64,000 nt of DNA from an uncultured bacterium (lineage in GTDB: Bacteria > Verrucomicrobiota > Kiritimatiellia > RFP12 > UBA3636): assembly GCA_902761575.1 (NCBI GenBank), contig CACWKU010000001.1, positions 22,435 through 86,434 on the forward strand, read 5' to 3'. The notes under the pieces are model-generated. The model did no database searches. It worked only from the letters and a program-made list of their open reading frames with translations, and was not told the origin of the DNA. Both the position numbers and the translations under genes were made by a program. Below, piece by piece: positions 5,249 to 53,025 of this stretch. Position 1 is the stretch's first letter; each line of letters starts with the position of its first letter.

Positions 5249-8200
5249 CTAGCGCGTCAGGATCGCCCGGTAGAAATGGTGCTGGTCCGTGGCGGGCTGC
5301 CACGGGCCGGAAAGCGCGTCGGCGCCGAAGACCGTCACGGTCCCGTTGTAGGTCCCGGCGATGGCCGGAACCGTGCCCGGATCGATTCCCGCGAAGCGGA
5401 ACGCGGACTTCGCCTCGTCGAGGCCGGCCACGGCGCAGTTCAGAAGGTAGGCCGCCGAAAGCGCGTTGTCGGGGTTCCCGTCCGCGTCGAAGGACATCGC
5501 GTTCACGTCCGCGCCGCCGAACGGCACGCCGTTCGCGCGCGCCCACTTCGAGAGCCTGCGCAGCTCCGCCGTCGTGGTGCCGGCCTCCGCGAAGGCGCCG
5601 CCCGTGAGGCCGAGGTCCGCCGGCGAGGTGGCGTCCGTGATCGCCGTGTCGGGGTCCTCGGGCCAGTCCTGGAAGCCGCCGCCGCCGGCCTCGCCGAGGT
5701 CTCGGACCTGGAGGGCGGCGACGTAGCGCGCGGCGCCCGATCCGCCCATCTTGAACGTGACCACATGCGACGATGATTCCGCCGTGAACGAACCGTACAC
5801 CGTCGCGCCGGACGAGCCGTTCCCGTTCTGGATGCTGACGGAGGGCAGATCGCCGATCGTGATGTAGGCGTTTCCATACGAGTTGCGGGCCAGGATCTGC
5901 AGGAGATACGCATGGCCGGCCGTCAATCCCGAAAGCGTCAGATGGATCTCGCCCATGCCCGTATCCACGCCGAAGTCCCAGACCGTACCGAGGAGCGAGC
6001 TGCTCCCGGCGCTCACGTCCGCGCCGACGAAGGTCGGAGCAAAGGAAATGCTCGCCCCGGACAGGTTGGCGCCGGCCTGGAACGTCACGCCGCCCAGGGT
6101 CCGGTCCGTCGAGGCCCCGCGATAGGCGTAGAGAAGCGTGCCGTCCGTCCGGAGCATCGTTTCGTCCGACGCGCTCAGCGTCGCGACGGTCCAGCCCTCC
6201 ACGACGGAACCGCCGCCGCCCGACGTGTTGACGGCGAACGAGACGGACTTCGTGGCCGTCTTGCCCTTGTCGGTCGTGACCGTGACTGCGCAGGCGTAGG
6301 AGCCGTCGGCGAGGTTCTCGATGGAGAACGAGGCGGTGTCGTCGGTCTGGTTCGCGAGCGCCGCGACGGCGGTCCCGCCGTTCAGCGCGTAGGAGACGGA
6401 GTAGGACGACGCGGCCGCGCCCGCGTCGTCCGTTCCGAGCACGATGCCGGAGAGCGTGACCGTCGCGTTCGAGCCTGCAACATTGGCGGTCGCCGCGGCG
6501 ATCGACGGCGCGATGACCGGCGGCGGAGGCGTGCCGATCCGGAAGGAGACCGACTTCGCCGCCGAGGTCTTGCCCTTGTCGGTCGCGATCGTGACGACGC
6601 AAGTGTAGTCGCCGTCGGCGAGGTTCTCGATGGCGAACGACGCCGTCGCGCCGGTCTGGTTCTGCAGCGCCGTGACGGCGGTCCCGCCGTTCAGCGCGTA
6701 GGAGACGGAATAGGAAGTGGCGTCAGTCCCGGCATCGTCCGTCCCCATCACGATGCCGGAGAGAAAAAGCGACGCGGTGCTCCCGTCCGGAGTCGCGGTC
6801 ACGCTGCCGATCGACGGCTCGACGACCGTCGCCCCGCCGCCGCCGCCACCCCCGCCGCCGCCGTCGAGCTCGCGGACCTGGACGGCGTTGAACGGCATCT
6901 TGCCGCTACCGCCCTGATAGGTGATCGTCACGTCCTTCGTCGCGCCGACGGCCGTGAAGACGCCCGTGACGAGCGCGCCGTACTTCCCGCTCGCCTCGTT
7001 GTCGCCGTGGATGTGCACGGGGTCGCACCCGTTCGCGGAGACGGTCGTCGTGTTGTTCCAGTAGTTGTGCGCCAGGAACTGGACGAGGTAGATCTTCCCG
7101 CCTTCGAGATTCGAGAGCGTCAGCGTGACCGTGTGCGTGCCTGATCCGTCGCTGTCCCAGTACCAGCCGTTGCCGAGGGAGAGGCCGAGGTTGCCGCCGA
7201 CGCTTTCGTTCATGAAGTCGCCGGTGAAGCCGTCGATGTTGGGTGTGAAGGAGATCTTCGGAGGATTCTCCGAGGACTGGAGGTTCACGGACCGCTCGAA
7301 CGGGATTCCGTTGATGGTCCCGCCGTTGCAGACATAGCCGTAGACGAACGTGCCCTCCGTGCTGAATGCGGTGCCGCCCGCGTCCATGTATCCGGAGGTC
7401 CAGACATCGGAGACGGCGCTCGTGTTGACGTAGAAGACGACGGACTTCGTCTTCGCTCGCCCCTTGTCCGTCGTCATCGTGACCTCGCACGTGTGGTTGC
7501 CGTCCGCGAGGCCCTCGAGCGTGAACGAGCAGTCTTCCGACGTCTGGTCGGAGAGCGCCGTCACGGCCGCCGCGCCGTCGAGCTTGTAGGCGACGGAATA
7601 CTTCGTCGCGGGAACGGAGTTGGCGTCCGTGCCGAGGACGACGCCCGTGAGCGAGATCGTCGCGTTCGAACCGCTCGGCGCCGCGGCGAGCTCCGCGATG
7701 CGGGGATACTTCGGCCGGTTGTTCGTCGCGCGGTTCTGCGCGAACATCCAGACGAATCGGTGGTTCGGCGCGCCCGCCGTGACGTCGTCCTCCGTGGCGT
7801 AGCACGTCGTCCAGGCGTCGTGGCTGTTGTTCTCGAGCTTCTCGAAGATCACGTCCGATCCGAGCGCCCGGAGCGCCGTGACGATGCCCTCGGTCTGCTC
7901 GACGGGAATGGTCGGGTCTCCGCGGTTGTGCACGGCCAGGACCGGGACGTGCGCGATGTCGGCCGCGCAGGCGGGATCGCCGCCGCCGCAGCACGGCATC
8001 GCCGCGGCGAAGAAGTCGGGCCGGCGGCAGATCGCGTCCCAGGTCCCGTGCCCGCCCATCGAGAGGCCGGTGACGTAGATGCGGTCGGCGTCGACGTCCG
8101 CCATCGCGGCGTAGGCGTCGAGAAGGTCGAACACCGCCTGGAGCGCCGCGGACGGCTTGTCCTGGAACGTGCAGGTGGTCGAGTTCATGGAGAACTCCGC

Positions 8201-48228: not shown

Positions 48229-48756
48229 CTAGACGATGTCGCACTGGATCGAGCCGAGGACCGCCAGCGCGTGGACCTTCAGCTCCGGCGTCACGTCCGC
48301 CGTGGCGTCCGCGTGGACGACGATCGTCGCGTCCGGGAACCGCGCGCGCAGGATCGCCGCGTTGGAGAGGACGCAGATCGACGTGCATACGCCGCAGAGG
48401 TGCAGCTCCGCCGGCTCGTCGCCGATCCGCGCCGCGAGCGCGTCCGCGAGCGCGAAGCTGCCGAACGTGGGCTTGTCCACGACGATCGCGCCCGGCGCCT
48501 CCGCGAAGGACCGCAGCGCCGGCGCGATCTGCCAGCCGTCCGTCCCCTCGAGGCAGTGCGGGACCGGGAGCTTGCGCCCCTCGAGCGTGGAGGTGTAGTT
48601 TTCGTGGTGCGTGTCGCGCGTGAACGCGACGGCGTCCCACCCGCCCTGCGCGAGCAGCGCGCGGACGGGCTCCGCCGACGCCGCGCATTCGGCGTTCCCG
48701 AGGCTTCCCGTGAGGAAGTCGTTCTGCATGTCGATGACGACGAGGATCTTTTTCAT
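48229..48756 (-). CDS. pncA: nicotinamidase/pyrazinamidase (isochorismatase-family cysteine hydrolase)
   Basis: Start MKKILVVIDMQNDF at 48754-48756. Catalytic Cys context CGVCTSICV. Confidence 0.6.
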   Translation of the reverse strand: MKKILVVIDMQNDFLTGSLGNAECAASAEPVRALLAQGGWDAVAFTRDTHHENYTSTLEGRKLPVPHCLEGTDGWQIAPALRSFAEAPGAIVVDKPTFGSFALADALAARIGDEPAELHLCGVCTSICVLSNAAILRARFPDATIVVHADATADVTPELKVHALAVLGSIQCDIV

Positions 48757-48809
48757 GGGTTGAAGGGGCTGTCCTTTCGTGGTTCGGGGTGGTTTGTGTT
48801 CAACGCGTA

Positions 48810-48841
48810 CTGATACTATCAAAAATGAATTATCAGGTCAA
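48810..48841 (-). promoter_or_regulatory. pncA-nrtR operon promoter TTGACC-N17-TAGTAT overlapped by the palindrome CTGATA-N15-TATCAG (candidate NrtR operator)
   Basis: rc GGTCAA at 48836-48841 and rc ATACTA at 48813-48818. Palindrome 48810-48836 sits in a local AT-rich patch. Confidence 0.5.
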
Positions 48842-48943
48842 GCAAGAAATTGTACCATCCGCTCCGTGCCCTCCCCGTGCCCCTCGCTCGCCCCGCGCCG
48901 GGTCGGCGGTGGTCGTAGCTCGCATCGCTCGGTCCCGAAAACC

Positions 48944-49025
48944 AACAAACTCCCGAGTGTTTATTCAACAAACTCCCGAACGATTCTTCAACAAACTCCC
49001 GGACGAAATTTCAACAAACTCCCGA
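48944..49025 (+). repeat. four direct repeats of CAACAAACTCCCGA (period 22-23 bp) immediately upstream of the ATPase promoter
   Basis: Copies at 48944, 48967, 48989 and 49012. The third copy ends in G. Confidence 0.85.
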
Positions 49026-49030
49026 ACAAC

Positions 49031-49059
49031 TTGACATTTCCTTAGATTTCTCATAGAAT
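49031..49059 (+). promoter_or_regulatory. near-consensus sigma70 promoter TTGACA-N17-TAGAAT for the COG1373 ATPase gene; no Shine-Dalgarno site
   Basis: TTGACA at 49031-49036, 17-nt spacer, TAGAAT at 49054-49059, ATG at 49068. Confidence 0.6.
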
Positions 49060-49067
49060 TCGCCACC

Positions 49068-50348
49068 ATGAAACGGTACGCGAAGAGAGTGGCGGATAGT
49101 TTGCTCGCCCGAAAGCTCCAAGGGCTAGGCGCCGTTCTCGTCCAAGGGGCCAAATGGTGCGGCAAGACAACGACCTGCGAACAGGTCGCCAAGAGCGTTC
49201 TGTACATGGGCGACCCGAAGAAGCGCAAGGAGAATCTGGAGATGGCGTCGATCGACGTCACATCGCTTCTGGAGGGTGCGAAGCCAAGGCTCATCGACGA
49301 ATGGCAGGTCGCACCCGTGTTTTGGGACGCGATCCGCCACGCGGTGGACCACGCCGACGGTCCGGGGCAGTTCATCCTGACCGGCAGCGTGGTTCCCCCG
49401 AAGACCGAGGAGAAGACCCATAGCGGGACGGGGCGGATCGCCCGTCTCACCATGCGCCCGATGACGCTCTGGGAAAGCGGTGAGTCGAGCGGAACGATCT
49501 CCCTCGCCGAACTGTTTTCGGGAACGGCCCCGGATAGCGCCCGCGCCATGGGGCGCGAACTGGAGGAGATCGCGTTCCTCGCCTGCCGGGGCGGATGGCC
49601 CCAGGCGGTCCTTCGGAAGGGCGACGTCGCCCTCGACCTCGCCTTCGACTACGTGGACTCGGTCGCGGACGAGGACATCTCGCGCGTGGACGATGTGAGG
49701 CGCGACCCCGCGCGCGCCCGACGCCTTCTGCGCTCCTACGCGCGGCTCCAGGGCTCTCAGGCGAACCTCAAGGCCATCAAGCTTGACATGGCGGGCGGCG
49801 GGATCGACGCCCCGGACGAGGACACCGTCGCCTCCTACCGCGGCGCCCTCGAAAAGCTCTTCGTCGTGGAAGACGTGCCGGCCTGGTGTCCGAACCTTCG
49901 GTGCCGGACCCCTATCCGCACGAGCGGCACGCGCTGCTTCGTCGACCCGTCCATCGCTGCGGCGTCCCTCGGTCTCGGCCCGGGCGGCCTGATGTCCGAC
50001 CTGACGACGTTCGGCTTTTTCTTCGAAACGCTGGCCGTCCGCGACCTTCGCGTCTACGCAGAAGCCCTGTCCGGGAGCGTCGCCCACTACCGTGACGCCT
50101 CCGGGCTCGAATGCGACGCCGTCATCCATCTCCGCAATGGCGCCTACGGTCTCGTCGAGGTCAAGCTCGGCGGCGACCGACTCGTTGCCGAAGGCGTGGA
50201 AACCCTCCTGGCCTTCTCAGGCAAGATCGACACCGACGCAATGAAGGCGCCGGCGTTCCGTATGGTCCTTACGGCCGTCGGCGACTATGCCTACCGTCGT
50301 CCGGCCGATGGCGTCTACGTCTGTCCCCTCTCCGCTCTCTGTCCCTGA
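49068..50348 (+). CDS. AAA+ ATPase of the COG1373 family (DUF4143 C-terminal domain)
   Basis: Track ORF. Walker A GAKWCGKTT. C-terminal ..YRDASGLECDAVI..GLVEVKLG block. GC is lower than the surrounding DNA. Confidence 0.75.
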   Translation: MKRYAKRVADSLLARKLQGLGAVLVQGAKWCGKTTTCEQVAKSVLYMGDPKKRKENLEMASIDVTSLLEGAKPRLIDEWQVAPVFWDAIRHAVDHADGPGQFILTGSVVPPKTEEKTHSGTGRIARLTMRPMTLWESGESSGTISLAELFSGTAPDSARAMGRELEEIAFLACRGGWPQAVLRKGDVALDLAFDYVDSVADEDISRVDDVRRDPARARRLLRSYARLQGSQANLKAIKLDMAGGGIDAPDEDTVASYRGALEKLFVVEDVPAWCPNLRCRTPIRTSGTRCFVDPSIAAASLGLGPGGLMSDLTTFGFFFETLAVRDLRVYAEALSGSVAHYRDASGLECDAVIHLRNGAYGLVEVKLGGDRLVAEGVETLLAFSGKIDTDAMKAPAFRMVLTAVGDYAYRRPADGVYVCPLSALCP

Positions 50349-50362
50349 TCCTAGCTCCGCGC

Positions 50363-50389
50363 CCGCCCCGTCGCTTCGCGCCGGGGCGG
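50363..50389. terminator. candidate bidirectional terminator hairpin CCGCCCCG-N11-CGGGGCGG between the convergent ATPase and ABC genes
   Basis: 8-bp GC stem lying within the 61-bp convergent spacer. Confidence 0.35.
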
Positions 50390-50409
50390 AGACGGTCGGA
50401 CGCGGCGCG

Positions 50410-53025
50410 CTAGTTCTTCGCGGGCGTGCCGGCGCCGGCGCCGGCCTTGAACTCCATCCTGCTCAGGCGCTGGAGCTGAAGGACGGTGAAGCCGATCAGC
50501 ATGGAGCCGAGCACCCAGGCCATCGCCGTGGCGGGACCGAAGCGCAGGTAGCCGAACGCCTCCCAGAAGATGTGCAGCCCGACGACCTCCGTCGCGCCGT
50601 ACGGCGTGTAGGGGCCGCCGCCCGTCATCGCGAGCACGAACTCGCCGCCGCTCTTCATCGCGCCGATCGCGGCGCCGACGAAGTTGATCAGGATCAGCGA
50701 CCGGATGCCCGGCAGCGCCACGTGGCGGATCTTGCCGAAGAGGCCCGAGCCCTCGAGCTCGGCCGCCTCGTAGAGGTCGTCCGGGACGGTCTTGAGGGCC
50801 GCGAGGTACACGAGGCAGCCCGGCCCCATGCCGGCCCAGATCGTCGGCAGGAGGCACAGCAGGAGCGCCGCCTTCGGCTCGGAGAGCCAGGCCTTCGCGA
50901 GGTCCGGATAGGAGGTGCCGAACACGTAGTTCACGGCGTGGACGCAGCCGTTGATCATCTGGTTGAGGGCGCCGTAGGGACCGTAGAAGCCCTTCCAGAG
51001 GAAGATCACGACAACGCCCGAGAGCACGGCGGGGAGGTAGTAGATCGTGCGGTAGAGGATCTTGCCGCGCGGCACCTCGGAGAGGAGCAGGGCGAGGACG
51101 ATCGGCGCGACGAACCCGAGCCCGAGGTAGAGCGCGGCGTATTCCGCGGAGACGAGCATCGCGTGCCAGAACTCGCCGCTGAAGAGGACGTTGGCGAAGT
51201 TGTCGAGCCCGACCCACTGCGAGTAGCCGCGGACGTTGTAGTCCTGGAACGCCATCGCCGTGCCGCGCGCGAGCGGCCAGTAGGACCAGACCGCGAGCGA
51301 GAGCAGCGCGGGGAGCAGCAGCAGGTAGGCGGCGCCGCGCCCGGAGTCGTTGCGGCGCGAGCCGCCCGCCGGGTCGCGCGGGACCGCGGCGGCGAAGGTG
51401 CGCATCACGCGGCGGAAGACGAAGAAGAACGCGAGCGCCATGCCGACGACGACGACCGCCGCGACGCGGCGGCGGAAGCGCATCTTCTCCGGCGGCACGC
51501 GCCCGATCATCTTCTCGTCGGCGAGCGCGACGCGCTCGCGCAGGATCGCGCCGATGCGCTCGCGCGCGGCGGGGACGTCGCCGCGGCGGATGGCGTCGCG
51601 CACGGCGCCGTCGTTGCGCGCCTGGTCGATGGCGCGGGACATGTAGGTGTAGACGAGCTGGCAGTTGCGGCCGTAGGGCTCGGGGACGCCGTTCTCGCGC
51701 GCGACGGCGGCGGCCTCGTCCCAGCCCTCGGGGCAGGCGAAGGCCTCCGGGTCGAAGCCCGCCTCGCGCAGCGCGGAGGGCGGGACGAAGCGGCCGAGGC
51801 CGTTCTCGACGTAGGTGCGCGTCCGGATCTTGCGCGCCTCGCGCCCGCCCATGAACCACGCCCACTCCCACGCGAGCTCCGGCACGCGCGGGTCGCGGTC
51901 GCCGCTGCCGGCGTAGACGCCGAGCATGCCGCAGTTGTACTCGCTGCCGCGGCGGCCGGACGGGCCGCGGGGCACCGGGCCGAAGCCGATCAGGTTCGGG
52001 TCGATCTGCTGGAAGGTGTCCTGGTCGAGGTAGGAGAACCACATCGCGGAGCGCTGGCCGGGCGTGAAGGCCTCGCCCGTGTCGACGCACGTCGGGAGCG
52101 TGCCGCAGGCGTTGGTGAAGGGCTCCAGGTAGAGGCGGCAGACGAACGCGTAGGCGTCCGCCGCCTCGGGCGAGTCGAACGCGCAGCGCCAGGCGCCGTC
52201 CGCGTCGCGCTTCACGGCTCGGCCGCCCCACGAGTAGAGGAACGAGAGCGTGCTCCAGCCCGTCTCGCCGGTCGGGAGCGAGAGGCCCCAGGTCTTGTCC
52301 GCCGGGTTCGTGACGCGGCGCGCCCAGTCGAGGAGCTCGTCCGCCGTCTCCGGCACGCGGTCCGGGAGCCCCGCCTCCGAGAAGACGTCGCGCCGGTAGA
52401 AGAGCGCCATCACGAGCTGCTTGTGCGGGACGGCGAAGGTGTGGAAGTGCTCCGCGCACGGCTCGCGGCCCCATTCGCGCAGGTAGGGGCAGTCCTCGCC
52501 CCACGGGCACTCGCGGCGGATGACGTCCCACAGCACGGGCGGGAGGCGGTCGCGCAGCTCCTCCTCGAAGCGCGGGCCGGTCCGGAGCAGGTCGAGATAC
52601 TCCGGGTTGGGGAGCCGGTGCGCCTCGCGCGTCGCCTCCGGCGAGAGGCCGTCCTCCCGCTCGAGCCAGGCGTCGAGCGGCATCAGGAAGCGGTTGCGGA
52701 CGTAGGTGTCGGACTGGCGGAAGTTCACGTACATCGCGTCCGGCGCGACGTCGCCCGCAATCTGCATGAGCGGGGTCGTGTCCATCGCGCGACCGCCGGG
52801 CAGGACGAGCCCGCCGGAGGACTCGAGCCGCGCCTCGGGGTGCAGCGCGCGGAAGGCGTCCGCGACGCGGACGGAGCATTCGCCCTCGACGCCCTGCGGC
52901 TCGCCGCTGGGGACGCCCCACGAGCGCACGACGGGCGGGCCGTCCTCCGCCGCCGCGAACGCGGCGCACGCGAGGAGGACGGCGATCGCCGGCAGGCGAC
53001 GGAAGGGACGGATCGTTGCGTTCAT
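50410..53025 (-). CDS. ABC transporter fusion protein: family-1 sugar-binding periplasmic domain fused to a MalF/UgpA-type permease domain
   Basis: Start MNATIRPFRRLPAIAVLLACAAFAAA at 53023-53025. Permease EAA loop EAAELEGSGLFGKIRHVALP. No partner permease or ATPase gene adjacent. Confidence 0.6.
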   Translation of the reverse strand: MNATIRPFRRLPAIAVLLACAAFAAAEDGPPVVRSWGVPSGEPQGVEGECSVRVADAFRALHPEARLESSGGLVLPGGRAMDTTPLMQIAGDVAPDAMYVNFRQSDTYVRNRFLMPLDAWLEREDGLSPEATREAHRLPNPEYLDLLRTGPRFEEELRDRLPPVLWDVIRRECPWGEDCPYLREWGREPCAEHFHTFAVPHKQLVMALFYRRDVFSEAGLPDRVPETADELLDWARRVTNPADKTWGLSLPTGETGWSTLSFLYSWGGRAVKRDADGAWRCAFDSPEAADAYAFVCRLYLEPFTNACGTLPTCVDTGEAFTPGQRSAMWFSYLDQDTFQQIDPNLIGFGPVPRGPSGRRGSEYNCGMLGVYAGSGDRDPRVPELAWEWAWFMGGREARKIRTRTYVENGLGRFVPPSALREAGFDPEAFACPEGWDEAAAVARENGVPEPYGRNCQLVYTYMSRAIDQARNDGAVRDAIRRGDVPAARERIGAILRERVALADEKMIGRVPPEKMRFRRRVAAVVVVGMALAFFFVFRRVMRTFAAAVPRDPAGGSRRNDSGRGAAYLLLLPALLSLAVWSYWPLARGTAMAFQDYNVRGYSQWVGLDNFANVLFSGEFWHAMLVSAEYAALYLGLGFVAPIVLALLLSEVPRGKILYRTIYYLPAVLSGVVVIFLWKGFYGPYGALNQMINGCVHAVNYVFGTSYPDLAKAWLSEPKAALLLCLLPTIWAGMGPGCLVYLAALKTVPDDLYEAAELEGSGLFGKIRHVALPGIRSLILINFVGAAIGAMKSGGEFVLAMTGGGPYTPYGATEVVGLHIFWEAFGYLRFGPATAMAWVLGSMLIGFTVLQLQRLSRMEFKAGAGAGTPAKN

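What the first reader, a model, noticed from the sequence alone, without database searches (positions are those of the whole stretch)
48944..50348. A lower-GC COG1373 AAA+ ATPase gene with a near-consensus promoter and four 22-bp direct repeats sits between the NAD operon and a partner-less ABC gene
The ATPase gene 49068..50348 is about 64% GC in a roughly 70% background and lacks a Shine-Dalgarno site. It has TTGACA-N17-TAGAAT immediately upstream. This is preceded by four direct repeats of CAACAAACTCCCGA at 22-23-bp periodicity (48944-49025), which look like an iteron or regulator binding array. The gene is convergent with an ABC binding-protein/permease fusion gene that has no second permease or ATPase partner nearby. 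That is consistent with insertion of foreign DNA into an operon. COG1373/DUF4143 ATPases are frequent orphan or mobile-associated genes and have been noted in defence islands. The layout of repeat array, strong promoter and lone ATPase could be a minimal selfish or defence module.
Basis: partly seen in the sequence, partly recalled or inferred. Interest (0 to 1): 0.6.

Follow-up and report, generated by a model that had tools for sequence, protein, structure and literature searches.

The report
Nuclease-ATPase gene reading its own repeats
A lone, apparently mobile gene for an ATPase/DNA-binding/nuclease protein sits behind four 23-base repeats that the protein itself seems to read, and the same layout recurs across bacteria and archaea in one of the commonest unproven 'anti-phage' gene families.

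Summary
There are four exactly 23-bp-spaced repeats at 48941-49032. They abut a TTGACA-N17-TAGAAT promoter, and a leaderless gene follows at 49068-50348 (Pfam AAA_14+DUF4143; PADLOC candidate PDC-S01). Its GC3 is 0.83, against 0.93-0.99 in most neighbours. The layout is general. At least 56 of 59 homologues from six bacterial phyla and an archaeon carry 2-9 repeats with a 23-bp period just upstream of their promoter. Plasmid homologues at 28-59% identity and most viral-contig homologues do too. Repeat sequences differ between lineages and between paralogues but are uniform within each array. Two protein positions track two repeat positions. One is residue 252, at the start of the recognition helix of a predicted winged helix. 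The other is residue 344, in the nuclease domain. Both rules held in 32 loci found independently (p=7e-6 and 9e-7). The protein therefore most likely binds its own array, probably for autoregulation. The array, promoter and gene form a unit found in different genomic contexts, and it is often flanked by 24-133-bp direct repeats of host sequence. I found no published description. The biological role, whether defence or selfish mobility, remains untested.

The parts
48861..48915 (.). Upstream copy of an imperfect direct repeat that brackets the module (putative duplicated target, decayed)
   Evidence: Family D3 (48888-48915 vs 50371-50398, 79% identity). The observed score was reached by 0 of 1000 shuffles. 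Gapped alignment of 48861-48915 with 50354-50398. The same kind of flanking repeat is significant in 11 of 49 loci.
48941..49032 (+). Array of four head-to-tail 23-bp units (core CAACAAACTCCCGA/G plus a variable A/T-rich spacer). Proposed cognate binding sites of the downstream protein.
   Evidence: Period-23 arrays lie upstream of at least 56 of 59 homologues. Positions 3-17 are homogeneous within arrays. Unit bases covary with protein residues.
49031..49059 (+). Sigma-70-type promoter: -35 TTGACA (49031-49036), 17 nt, -10 TAGAAT (49054-49059). The -35 box starts inside the last two bases of the last unit.
   Evidence: 11 of 12 matches. The geometry (array end to ATG 34-37 nt) is the same in 13 relatives.
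49068..50348 (+). Leaderless CDS of 426 aa, family COG1373 / AAA_14+DUF4143 / PADLOC PDC-S01
   Evidence: The identical protein occurs on 23 metagenome contigs.
49068..49697 (+). P-loop ATPase core (residues 1-160; Walker A K33 at 49164-49166, Walker B D77-E78 at 49296-49301) and helical lid (residues 161-210)
49698..49946 (+). Winged helix-turn-helix (residues 211-293). Predicted recognition helix 251-263. Specificity residue D252 (codon 49821-49823) tracks unit positions 13-15.
   Evidence: Secondary structure. Covariation. Out-of-sample test.
49947..50345 (+). PD-(D/E)xK nuclease domain (residues 294-426; E320, D350, E364, K366). Loop residue A344 (codon 50097-50099) tracks unit position 4.
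   Evidence: Covariation. Out-of-sample test.
50354..50398 (.). Downstream copy of the flanking direct repeat. It contains a G+C-rich hairpin (50363-50374 / 50378-50389) between the two convergent stop codons.
   Evidence: (D3, I17).

Best explanation
The finding is one copy of a self-contained, horizontally moving single-gene cassette of the COG1373 / AAA_14-DUF4143 family (PADLOC candidate PDC-S01). The cassette is an array of 23-bp operator units, a strong promoter, and a leaderless gene for an ATPase-lid-winged-helix-PD-(D/E)xK-nuclease protein.

Shown by computation:
- The cassette layout, including the exact 23-bp period, is conserved from Kiritimatiellae to Bacteroidota, Bacillota, Actinomycetota, Chlorobiota, Pseudomonadota and an archaeon.
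- Unit sequences are specific to each lineage and each paralogue, but uniform within an array over a 15-bp footprint (positions 3-17).
- Two protein positions predict two unit positions about one helical turn apart. Residue 252, at the start of the predicted winged-helix recognition helix, goes with positions 13-15. Residue 344, in the loop before catalytic D350, goes with position 4.
- ATPase and nuclease catalytic residues are invariant.

Inferred:
- Protomers bind head-to-tail to the protein's own array. Each reads a unit with both the winged helix and the nuclease domain.
- They probably assemble an ATP-dependent oligomer that ends at the -35 box.
- This autoregulates transcription. Repression is the more likely direction, because the promoter is near-consensus and the product is a nuclease.
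- The nuclease is the effector of a conflict function, either anti-phage/plasmid defence or the cassette's own spread. This is the least secure step.
For: Generality:
- TRF finds a period-23 array ending 40-370 nt before the start codon (within 162 nt in 48 of them) in 49 of 59 genome loci, and a weight-matrix chain adds 7 more.
- The three paralogues in L017 and the two with detected arrays in L018 each have their own array with a different sequence.
- Plasmid homologues at 28-59% identity in Bacteroides, Collinsella, Prosthecochloris, Lentilactobacillus, Rhodoferax, Mycobacterium, Agrobacterium and Actinomyces show 22-23-bp arrays.
- In 27 of 29 viral-contig homologues the best upstream period between 10 and 40 is 23.

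Selection on the sites:
- Within-array identity is 0.78-0.99 at positions 3-17 and 0.51-0.77 in the spacer.
- Positions 3-5, 9, 11-12 and 14-15 differ between loci (0.27-0.53).
- Relatives at 75-91% identity keep the CAACAAACTCCCG core while the spacers diverge.

Recognition code in the training set:
- D/E252 goes with G15 in 29 of 30 cases. N, A, T and R go with other triplets.
- At the level of 70%-identity clusters the split is 11 of 12 against 0 of 7 (p=1.6e-4), and switches within clusters obey the rule.
- K/R344 goes with G4 in 17 of 17 cases, and S344 with C4 in 17 of 18.
- In close pairs the phi coefficient is 0.74, against 0.38 for the next-best column.
- Winged-helix columns are enriched among the top covarying columns, 17 of 49 against 23 of 198 (p=3e-4).

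Out-of-sample test:
- The test used 32 loci retrieved by a DNA pattern that ignores the protein.
- K/R344 goes with G4 in 23 of 24 cases against 0 of 8 (p=9e-7).
- D252 goes with G15 in 15 of 16 cases against 2 of 16 (p=7e-6).

Fold and geometry:
- The model is confident, and its closest solved folds are ATPase-lid-winged-helix proteins, including Orc1/Cdc6 bound to origin DNA.
- The last unit ends 34-37 nt before the ATG in 13 sigma-70-type loci, with the -35 TTG starting at unit positions 21-24.

Reverse association:
- Of 73 assessable arrays found by DNA pattern alone, 48 are followed by a family match.
- Four more are followed by a distant member or by the sister family ATPase_2.
Against: - No binding, transcription or cleavage experiment exists, and no protein-DNA model could be built.
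- The covariation is statistical, and the sequences are related to one another.
- The code at position 15 is not one-to-one. E252 goes with G in the training set but mostly with A in the test set, and T252 is also inconsistent.
- A domain-level distance test did not single out the winged helix.
- About 21 of 73 arrays are orphans or precede unrelated genes (Dam methylase, Vsr, HipA N-terminal domain), so the array is not strictly tied to its own gene.
- One DUF4143 paralogue (L081, minus strand) has no visible array, and L066 has none.
- The direction of regulation is not determined.
- The defence role of PDC-S01 has not been validated (PMC12988326).
Confidence: 0.7

Rival explanations
1. The array is mainly a cis site for the cassette's own movement or for local recombination. 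The nuclease-ATPase assembles on it and cuts nearby, so the module is a one-gene selfish element and regulation is secondary.
For: - The nuclease-domain residue 344 reads unit position 4.
- The catalytic residues are invariant.
- The array sits at the extreme left end of a unit bracketed by 24-133-bp direct repeats of host sequence. This is significant in 11 of 49 loci.
- The same cassette lies in different contexts in close relatives.
- In L085 homology to L053 breaks inside the promoter just after the array, and a Dam methylase cassette follows.
- Nearly identical orphan arrays occur in three unrelated contexts.
Against: - There is no unit-like site at the right end of the cassette.
- No transposase, integrase or Rep domain is present.
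- No empty site was recovered.
- The exact phasing with the -35 box points to a transcriptional role.
- Long flanking repeats could also arise from homologous recombination of excised circles.
Confidence: 0.15
2. The protein is chiefly a transcription factor with a regulon. Arrays in front of its own gene and in front of other genes (methylases, Vsr, toxin-antitoxin genes) are all operators bound in trans.
For: - Orphan arrays of the same unit architecture lie upstream of D12 methylases (L085, L093/L107), Vsr (L122) and a HipA N-terminal gene (L092).
- L012 carries a second, non-cognate array upstream of the cognate one.
Against: - At least one such case (L085) is a gene replacement that left the array behind.
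- The window holds no other copy of the unit in 64 kb.
- The invariant ATPase and nuclease sites are not explained by a purely regulatory role.
Confidence: 0.1
3. The repeats are iterons of a replication origin or partition site of an integrated plasmid-like element, with the Orc/Cdc6-like ATPase as initiator.
For: - The 22-23-bp head-to-tail spacing is typical of plasmid iterons (general knowledge).
- The fold resembles Orc1/Cdc6, whose genes lie next to their origin repeats.
- 155 plasmid records carry homologues.
Against: - The context is chromosomal housekeeping genes, fixed in the species.
- Up to three cassettes sit within 7 kb in one chromosome.
- There is no AT-rich unwinding region other than the 30-bp promoter.
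- There is no Rep family domain.
- The array is phase-locked to the promoter.
Confidence: 0.04
4. The array is bound by an unrelated host regulator, or is a neutral tandem duplication, and its position next to the ATPase gene is incidental.
For: Tandem repeats arise by slippage. No experiment links the protein to the DNA.
Against: - The same period and unit architecture occur in more than 100 loci across phyla.
- The core is conserved while the spacer drifts.
- Protein-DNA covariation was validated out of sample.
- The array region shows no RNA structure (z=+0.74) and no Rfam match.
Confidence: 0.02

Closest known systems
PADLOC phage-defence candidate PDC-S01 (COG1373; Pfam AAA_14 + DUF4143)
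   Same: The window protein matches the PDC-S01 model (E=2.5e-57) and both Pfam domains. It has an ATPase fused to a PD-(D/E)xK domain, as described for PDC-S01 (PMC12988326; PMC3424549). It is a single-gene system, very abundant in rumen genomes (PMC13356809).
   Different: The papers found give no function and do not mention any cis element. The 23-bp array, its cognate specificity and the flanking repeats are not described there.
Iteron-binding plasmid initiators (RepA, TrfA and pi type)
   Same: Winged-helix proteins bind head-to-tail repeats spaced about 22-23 bp and autoregulate their own gene (general knowledge). The array here has the same geometry.
   Different: There is no Rep domain and no origin context. 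The protein adds an ATPase and a nuclease, and the array is fixed next to the -35 box of the protein's own promoter.
Archaeal Orc1/Cdc6 with origin recognition boxes
   Different: Origin boxes are inverted around an unwinding element, whereas these are 2-9 direct repeats at a strict 23 bp. Orc1/Cdc6 has no nuclease domain.
Archaeal ATPase_2 (PF01637) proteins SSO1545 (2fna) and PAB2304 (2qen)
   Different: They are a different Pfam family with no detectable sequence match to the query profile. I found no function or DNA target for them in the papers held.
STAND-type defence NTPases with nuclease effectors (Avs, NLR-like) and STAND regulators such as MalT
   Different: There is no C-terminal sensor repeat domain, since the protein ends with the nuclease at 426 aa. 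Here the winged helix appears to read DNA, and the target is the protein's own promoter.

Membership tests
COG1373 / AAA_14-DUF4143 (PADLOC PDC-S01) | AAA_14 and DUF4143 Pfam domains above the gathering score | tested here: met
   AAA_14 scores 49.8 bits (cut-off 27) and DUF4143 scores 93.8 bits (cut-off 28.1)
COG1373 / AAA_14-DUF4143 (PADLOC PDC-S01) | Match to a PDC-S01 profile | tested here: met
   PDLC04790, E=2.5e-57, residues 1-368
COG1373 / AAA_14-DUF4143 (PADLOC PDC-S01) | Intact Walker A/B motifs and PD-(D/E)xK catalytic residues | tested here: met
   K33, D77, E78, E320, D350, E364 and K366 are invariant in 63 homologues
COG1373 / AAA_14-DUF4143 (PADLOC PDC-S01) | Protection against phage | not testable with these tools
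   The literature says validation is pending (PMC12988326)
Iteron/Rep replicon | Head-to-tail repeats spaced about 22-23 bp | tested here: met
   Period 23, four units
Iteron/Rep replicon | Rep-family initiator protein | tested here: not met
   Only AAA_14 and DUF4143 were found in Pfam, with no NCBIfam hit
Iteron/Rep replicon | Adjacent AT-rich unwinding region, on an autonomous replicon | tested here: not met
   Only the 30-bp promoter is AT-rich. The chromosomal housekeeping context is the same on all contigs.
Orc1/Cdc6 with origin boxes | AAA+ core, lid and C-terminal winged helix | tested here: met
Orc1/Cdc6 with origin boxes | Inverted origin boxes flanking an unwinding element | tested here: not met
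   Only direct repeats are present, with no inverted copy
STAND defence NTPases (Avs/NLR-like) | C-terminal repeat sensor domain (TPR, LRR or WD40) | tested here: not met
   The protein ends at residue 426 with the nuclease domain
Transposon with multiple transposase-binding sites at both ends (Tn7 or Mu type) | Binding-site arrays in inverted orientation at both ends, plus a transposase | tested here: not met
   There is a single array and no copy elsewhere in the 64 kb. No unit-like site lies at the right end in 50 loci. No transposase domain is present.
CRISPR array | Repeats of 23-50 bp separated by unique spacers of similar length | tested here: not met
   The 15-bp conserved core is separated by only about 8 bp
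Structured RNA leader | Conserved secondary structure or an Rfam family | tested here: not met
   No Rfam match at E<=1 in the window or at gathering score in 10 other loci. Fold z-score is +0.74. The array lies upstream of the -35 box.

The most novel reading that the evidence does not exclude
COG1373/PDC-S01 cassettes are autonomous one-gene elements. A single ATPase-winged-helix-nuclease protein uses a simple two-point code (residue 252 for unit positions 13-15, residue 344 for position 4) to recognise a private 23-bp array. The array serves as its operator and also as the cis site from which it cuts or moves. That would explain the long target duplications, the gene replacements next to arrays and the dispersed orphan arrays. 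It would be a new class of array-guided mobile or defence element and a naturally re-programmable DNA-recognition scaffold.
Probability: 0.2. Interest if true: 0.9.

Novelty: new variant of a known kind. Interest (0 to 1): 0.82.

Why it matters
PDC-S01 / DUF4143 ATPases are reported as the fourth most common candidate defence gene in prokaryotes and the most frequent single locus in rumen genomes (PMC12988326, PMC13356809). No function or mechanism is known. A phmmer search here finds 3,809 clusters at 50% identity with E<=1e-10.

Three things follow from a conserved, cognate DNA array with a readable recognition code:
- The family gets its first concrete, testable molecular handle: what the protein binds, with which residues, and where relative to its promoter.
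- It explains how many paralogues can coexist in one genome without cross-talk.
- It raises the possibility that these genes are mobile cassettes rather than, or as well as, immune genes.

It also gives annotators a DNA signature for the cassette and its relics.

Tried and rejected
- Rfam: no match in the window at E<=1 and none at gathering score in 10 other loci. An RNA fold of the array gave z=+0.74. An RNA element is rejected.
- PDB sequence search with a family profile and an NCBIfam scan both returned nothing.
- A domain-level Mantel-type regression of repeat distance on protein-domain distances had weak correlations (Spearman 0.07-0.19) and did not single out the winged helix. It was replaced by column-level and close-pair analyses.
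- Conserved neighbour genes: none apart from antisense shadow ORFs, so the cassette is solitary.
- A unit-like site at the right end of the cassette: none above the level of CDS controls.
- An empty site for the window species: every contig with the same or a 96%-identical ABC protein either carries the ATPase or is too short. The contig for P0003 had no DNA available.
- ABC partner genes in the window: none found.
- Literature searches for DUF4143, COG1373, PF13173/PF13635, PDC-S01, '23-bp repeats' and PAB2304/SSO1545 found no description of the array. The library lacks most subscription journals, so prior description cannot be excluded.
Full report
**1. What is in the window**

The stretch 48941-49032 holds four head-to-tail 23-bp units. 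The core CAACAAACTCCCGA starts at 48943, 48966, 48989 (last base G) and 49012. No further copy occurs in 64 kb on either strand.

The last unit runs into a near-consensus promoter, TTGACA (49031) - 17 nt - TAGAAT (49054-49059), which matches 11 of 12 positions. The ATG at 49068 follows 8 nt after the -10 box, so the mRNA is leaderless or nearly so.

The 426-aa product carries Pfam AAA_14 and DUF4143. It matches the PADLOC phage-defence candidate PDC-S01 at E=2.5e-57.

Its GC3 is 0.83, against 0.93-0.99 for most neighbours. The host is a rumen Kiritimatiellae bacterium: L011, MAG RGIG1497, encodes a 100% identical protein.

The convergent neighbour is a solute-binding-protein/permease fusion with no partner genes in the window.

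**2. The layout is a family trait**

*Genome loci.* I fetched 59 loci encoding relatives at 37-100% identity. They come from Kiritimatiellae, Verrucomicrobia, Bacteroidales, Clostridia, Bacilli, Fibrobacter, Anaerolineae and a Methanomethylophilaceae archaeon.
- Tandem Repeats Finder reports a period-23 array ending 40-370 nt before the start codon (within 162 nt in 48 of them) in 49 of them.
- A weight-matrix chain adds seven more.
- Two loci are cut by contig ends, and one (L066) has none.

*Paralogues.* Extra period-23 arrays in L017 and L018 each lie in front of an additional DUF4143 paralogue and have a different sequence.

*Plasmids and viral contigs.*
- Plasmid-borne homologues at 28-59% identity have 22-23-bp arrays too. 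These are in Bacteroides, Collinsella, Prosthecochloris, Lentilactobacillus, Rhodoferax, Mycobacterium, Agrobacterium and Actinomyces.
- In 27 of 29 assessable viral-contig homologues, the strongest upstream periodicity between 10 and 40 bp is 23.

*The shared unit.* Put in register, the units read nnCnnCAA(A/C)TnnCC(G/A)AAn(A/G)AAAAn. CAA at positions 6-8, A at position 16 and the A-tract are nearly invariant. Positions 3-5, 9, 11-12 and 14-15 are specific to each locus.

*Evidence of selection.*
- Within an array, positions 3-17 are 78-99% identical between units, whereas the spacer is 51-77%.
- Relatives at 75-91% protein identity that sit in unrelated genomic contexts keep the CAACAAACTCCCG core while their spacers have diverged.

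This is the signature of selection for a 15-bp binding site repeated in phase.

**3. The protein**

An AlphaFold2 model (pLDDT 89, pTM 0.90) shows four parts:

| Residues | Part |
|---|---|
| 1-160 | P-loop ATPase core |
| 161-210 | Helical lid |
| 211-293 | Winged helix-turn-helix, with helices 214-226, 234-242 and 251-263 followed by a beta wing |
| 294-426 | PD-(D/E)xK nuclease fold |

The closest solved folds are these:

Walker A K33, Walker B D77-E78 and the nuclease residues E320, D350, E364 and K366 are invariant in 63 homologues. Both enzymatic activities are therefore under selection. The protein is not merely a DNA-binding regulator.

**4. Who reads the array**

I paired each gene with the consensus of its own array and looked for protein columns that follow DNA positions. 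Two signals stand out.

*Residue 252.* It is the second residue of the predicted recognition helix (APDE-D252-TVASY in the window) and follows unit positions 13-15.
- D/E goes with CCG in 29 of 30 cases.
- N goes with CCC, ACC or CCA. A/G goes with CAC or CAT. T goes with ACA. R goes with GGA.
- At the level of 19 clusters at 70% identity, acidic-with-G15 holds in 11 of 12 clusters against 0 of 7 (p=1.6e-4).
- Switches inside clusters obey the rule: L044 vs L028, L016 vs L015, L033/L036 vs L037, L027 vs L040.

*Residue 344.* It lies in the loop six residues before catalytic D350 and follows unit position 4.
- K/R goes with G in 17 of 17 cases, and S with C in 17 of 18.
- In close pairs its phi coefficient is 0.74, against 0.38 for the next-best column.

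*Enrichment.* Winged-helix columns are over-represented among the 40 best covarying columns, 17 of 49 against 23 of 198 (p=3e-4).

*Independent test.* I scanned metagenome contigs with a pattern that specifies only the invariant bases of three phased units and leaves positions 4 and 15 free. In the 32 new loci with an alignable full-length gene:
- K/R344 goes with G4 in 23 of 24 cases against 0 of 8 (p=9e-7).
- D252 goes with G15 in 15 of 16 cases against 2 of 16 (p=7e-6).

The position-15 rule is not one-to-one, because E and T behave differently in the two sets. More residues must take part.

The plain reading is that the protein binds its own array. Each protomer touches a unit at two places about 11 bp apart, one with the winged helix and one with the nuclease domain. 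This is inference from covariation, not a demonstrated contact.

**5. Relation to the promoter**

In 13 loci with sigma-70-type promoters, the last unit ends 34-37 nt before the ATG. The -35 TTG begins at unit positions 21-24, and the -10 box lies 6-9 nt before the start codon.

With the ATG as +1, the four cores in the window are centred near -47, -70, -93 and -116. Such strict phasing argues for a transcriptional role. I favour autorepression because the promoter is close to consensus and the product is a nuclease. Activation from these positions is also known for winged-helix proteins (OmpR/PhoB type, general knowledge) and cannot be excluded.

**6. The cassette as a unit**

No neighbouring gene is conserved across loci.

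The reverse test is informative. Of 73 assessable arrays found by DNA pattern alone:
- 48 are followed by a family match. 41 of these start 45-200 nt downstream, and 7 are fragments.
- Two are followed by distant AAA_14/DUF4143 genes.
- Two are followed by the sister family ATPase_2 with a C-terminal D..ExK motif.

The remaining 21 or so are orphans or precede D12 methylases, Vsr, a HipA N-terminal gene or a cREC_REC gene.
- In L085 the sequence is 92% identical to L053 up to a point inside the promoter just after the array. From there a methylase cassette replaces the ATPase.
- L088, L090 and L092 share only a 93-98% identical array in three different contexts.

*Flanking direct repeats.* The module is often bracketed by direct repeats of locus-specific sequence. 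In a systematic test, 11 of 49 loci reach p<=0.01, where about 0.5 would be expected. Examples:

| Locus | Flanking repeat |
|---|---|
| L012 | 61/62 bp |
| L031 | 56/57 bp |
| L040 | 54 bp |
| L081 | 68 bp |
| L049 | 133-bp heptamer microsatellite |

The upstream copy ends 3-30 nt before the first unit in most of these (154-204 nt before it in L081 and L029, 75 nt in L046). The downstream copy starts 0-14 nt after the stop codon in most (23-77 nt after it in L029, L081 and L046).

The window has a decayed version: 48888-48915 against 50371-50398, 22 of 28 matches, reached by 0 of 1000 shuffles. The downstream copy includes the hairpin between the two convergent stop codons. This suggests that the cassette entered the terminator region between the ABC gene and the NAD-gene promoter.

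No cognate site exists at the right end of the cassette, and no empty site was recovered. The mechanism of movement therefore remains open.

**7.

The parts that hold are the idea of a regulator-binding array, a strong promoter and a lone, foreign-looking, defence-associated ATPase acting as one module.

'Insertion into an operon' is not supported. Relatives of the ABC fusion at 60-64% identity do have the order fusion, permease 2, MalK (L205, L206). But an 88% relative in another context (L204) also stands alone without any DUF4143 neighbour. In addition, the flanking repeat indicates a simple insertion, not a replacement.

**8. Comparison with what is known**

The gene is a member of COG1373/DUF4143/PDC-S01.
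- A 2012 survey lists the function of DUF4143 as unknown (PMC3424549).
- Recent surveys describe PDC-S01 as extremely common but unvalidated (PMC12988326, PMC13356809).
- None of the papers I could search mentions an upstream array.

In mechanism it resembles three known systems:
- Iteron-binding initiators, in repeat geometry, winged-helix reading and autoregulation.
- Orc1/Cdc6 next to its origin boxes, in fold and in the gene lying beside its own sites.
- STAND NTPases with nuclease effectors.

It fails a defining feature of each of these families (see the membership table). I therefore classify it as a new variant of a known kind: a self-recognising ATPase-nuclease cassette.

**9. Limits**

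Everything here is computational. The sequences are related to one another. The covariation was validated out of sample, but not with a full phylogenetic model. The structure is a monomer without DNA. The held literature is incomplete. The direction of regulation, the substrate of the nuclease and the biological role (defence or selfish spread) are inferences of decreasing confidence.

Noticed in passing
window 48810-48841: The inverted repeat CTGATA (48810-48815) ... TATCAG (48831-48836) overlaps a minus-strand promoter-like site, TTGACC (48841) - 17 nt - TAGTAT (48813). The site lies in front of the pncA-like / NrtR / metallophosphoesterase genes. It is a likely NrtR operator and is conserved in both locus variants.
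   Followed up: partly
L004-L010 versus window 48229-48822: Same species, two locus forms. In L004-L010 a four-gene block lies between the isochorismatase-family (pncA-like) gene and the conserved intergenic region. The block is ADP-ribosylglycohydrolase, PnuC-type NMN transporter, AAA_28 NadR-like gene, ADP-ribosylglycohydrolase. In the window the pncA-like gene abuts that region directly.
   Followed up: no
window 50410-53025 (minus strand); L204-L206: The 871-aa solute-binding-protein/permease fusion is a widespread architecture in Kiritimatiellia, Lentisphaeria, Verrucomicrobia and Phycisphaerae. Relatives at 60-64% identity are followed by a second long permease and a MalK-type ATPase. 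The window copy and an 88% relative are not.
   Followed up: partly
L012 1009-1146: A compound array. Three units of GCCAACTCGCCGAAC have G at position 4, which the code assigns to a K/R344 protein. Three units of CAACAAACTCCCGAA follow and fit the adjacent A344/D252 protein. This is either a relic of a previous cassette or a site for cross-regulation by a paralogue.
   Followed up: no
L085 1212-1500 versus L053 5865-5965: At the same chromosomal site as L053, the array and the first half of the promoter are retained. From there the ATPase gene is replaced by a D12-class adenine methylase with its own promoter. The breakpoint lies between the -33 and -7 promoter elements.
   Followed up: yes
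L088 658-737, L090 (minus) 1055-1111, L092 (minus) 1539-1595: Arrays that are nearly identical, spacers included (93-98%), lie in three unrelated contexts with no family ATPase in the DNA held. One of them lies 380 nt upstream of a HipA N-terminal gene.
   Followed up: partly
L115 13830-13886 and L120 (minus) 7006-7062: The same unit architecture precedes a 486-aa protein of the sister family ATPase_2 (PF01637) with a C-terminal D..ExK motif. That is the family of the best structural matches, 2fna and 2qen. Array binding may therefore predate the split between COG1373 and the archaeal-type ATPases.
   Followed up: partly
L017 3000-9700 (Bacteroidales bacterium CF, CP006772): Three paralogous cassettes lie within 7 kb, each with a different array. 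A near-palindromic element AACGCAnGACCTTGCCAAGGTTTTT lies before the first two cassettes and after their stop codons; it was not checked around the third. It also appears in L018 and L019.
   Followed up: partly
L049 5684-5816 and 7294-7424; L055 5660-5815; L064 5790-5880: Heptamer microsatellites lie directly upstream of several arrays, for example (AATGCGG)n(AATGGCT)n and (GTGGAGA)n. In L049 the same tract lies on both sides of the cassette.
   Followed up: partly
L039, L045, L041, L037/L038/L065: The number of units varies among close relatives that share the same unit sequence: 8-9, 5, 4 and 3. This may be a way of tuning expression, or simply slippage.
   Followed up: no
L072 2576-2812 and L073 2638-2859: In the Collinsella plasmids a small XRE-type helix-turn-helix gene lies immediately upstream of the array and the DUF4143 gene. 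This was not seen in other lineages.
   Followed up: no
L081 1850-3040 (minus strand): A 396-aa DUF4143 paralogue, convergent with the main gene, has no recognisable array in its G+C-rich upstream region. Not every family member has one.
   Followed up: no
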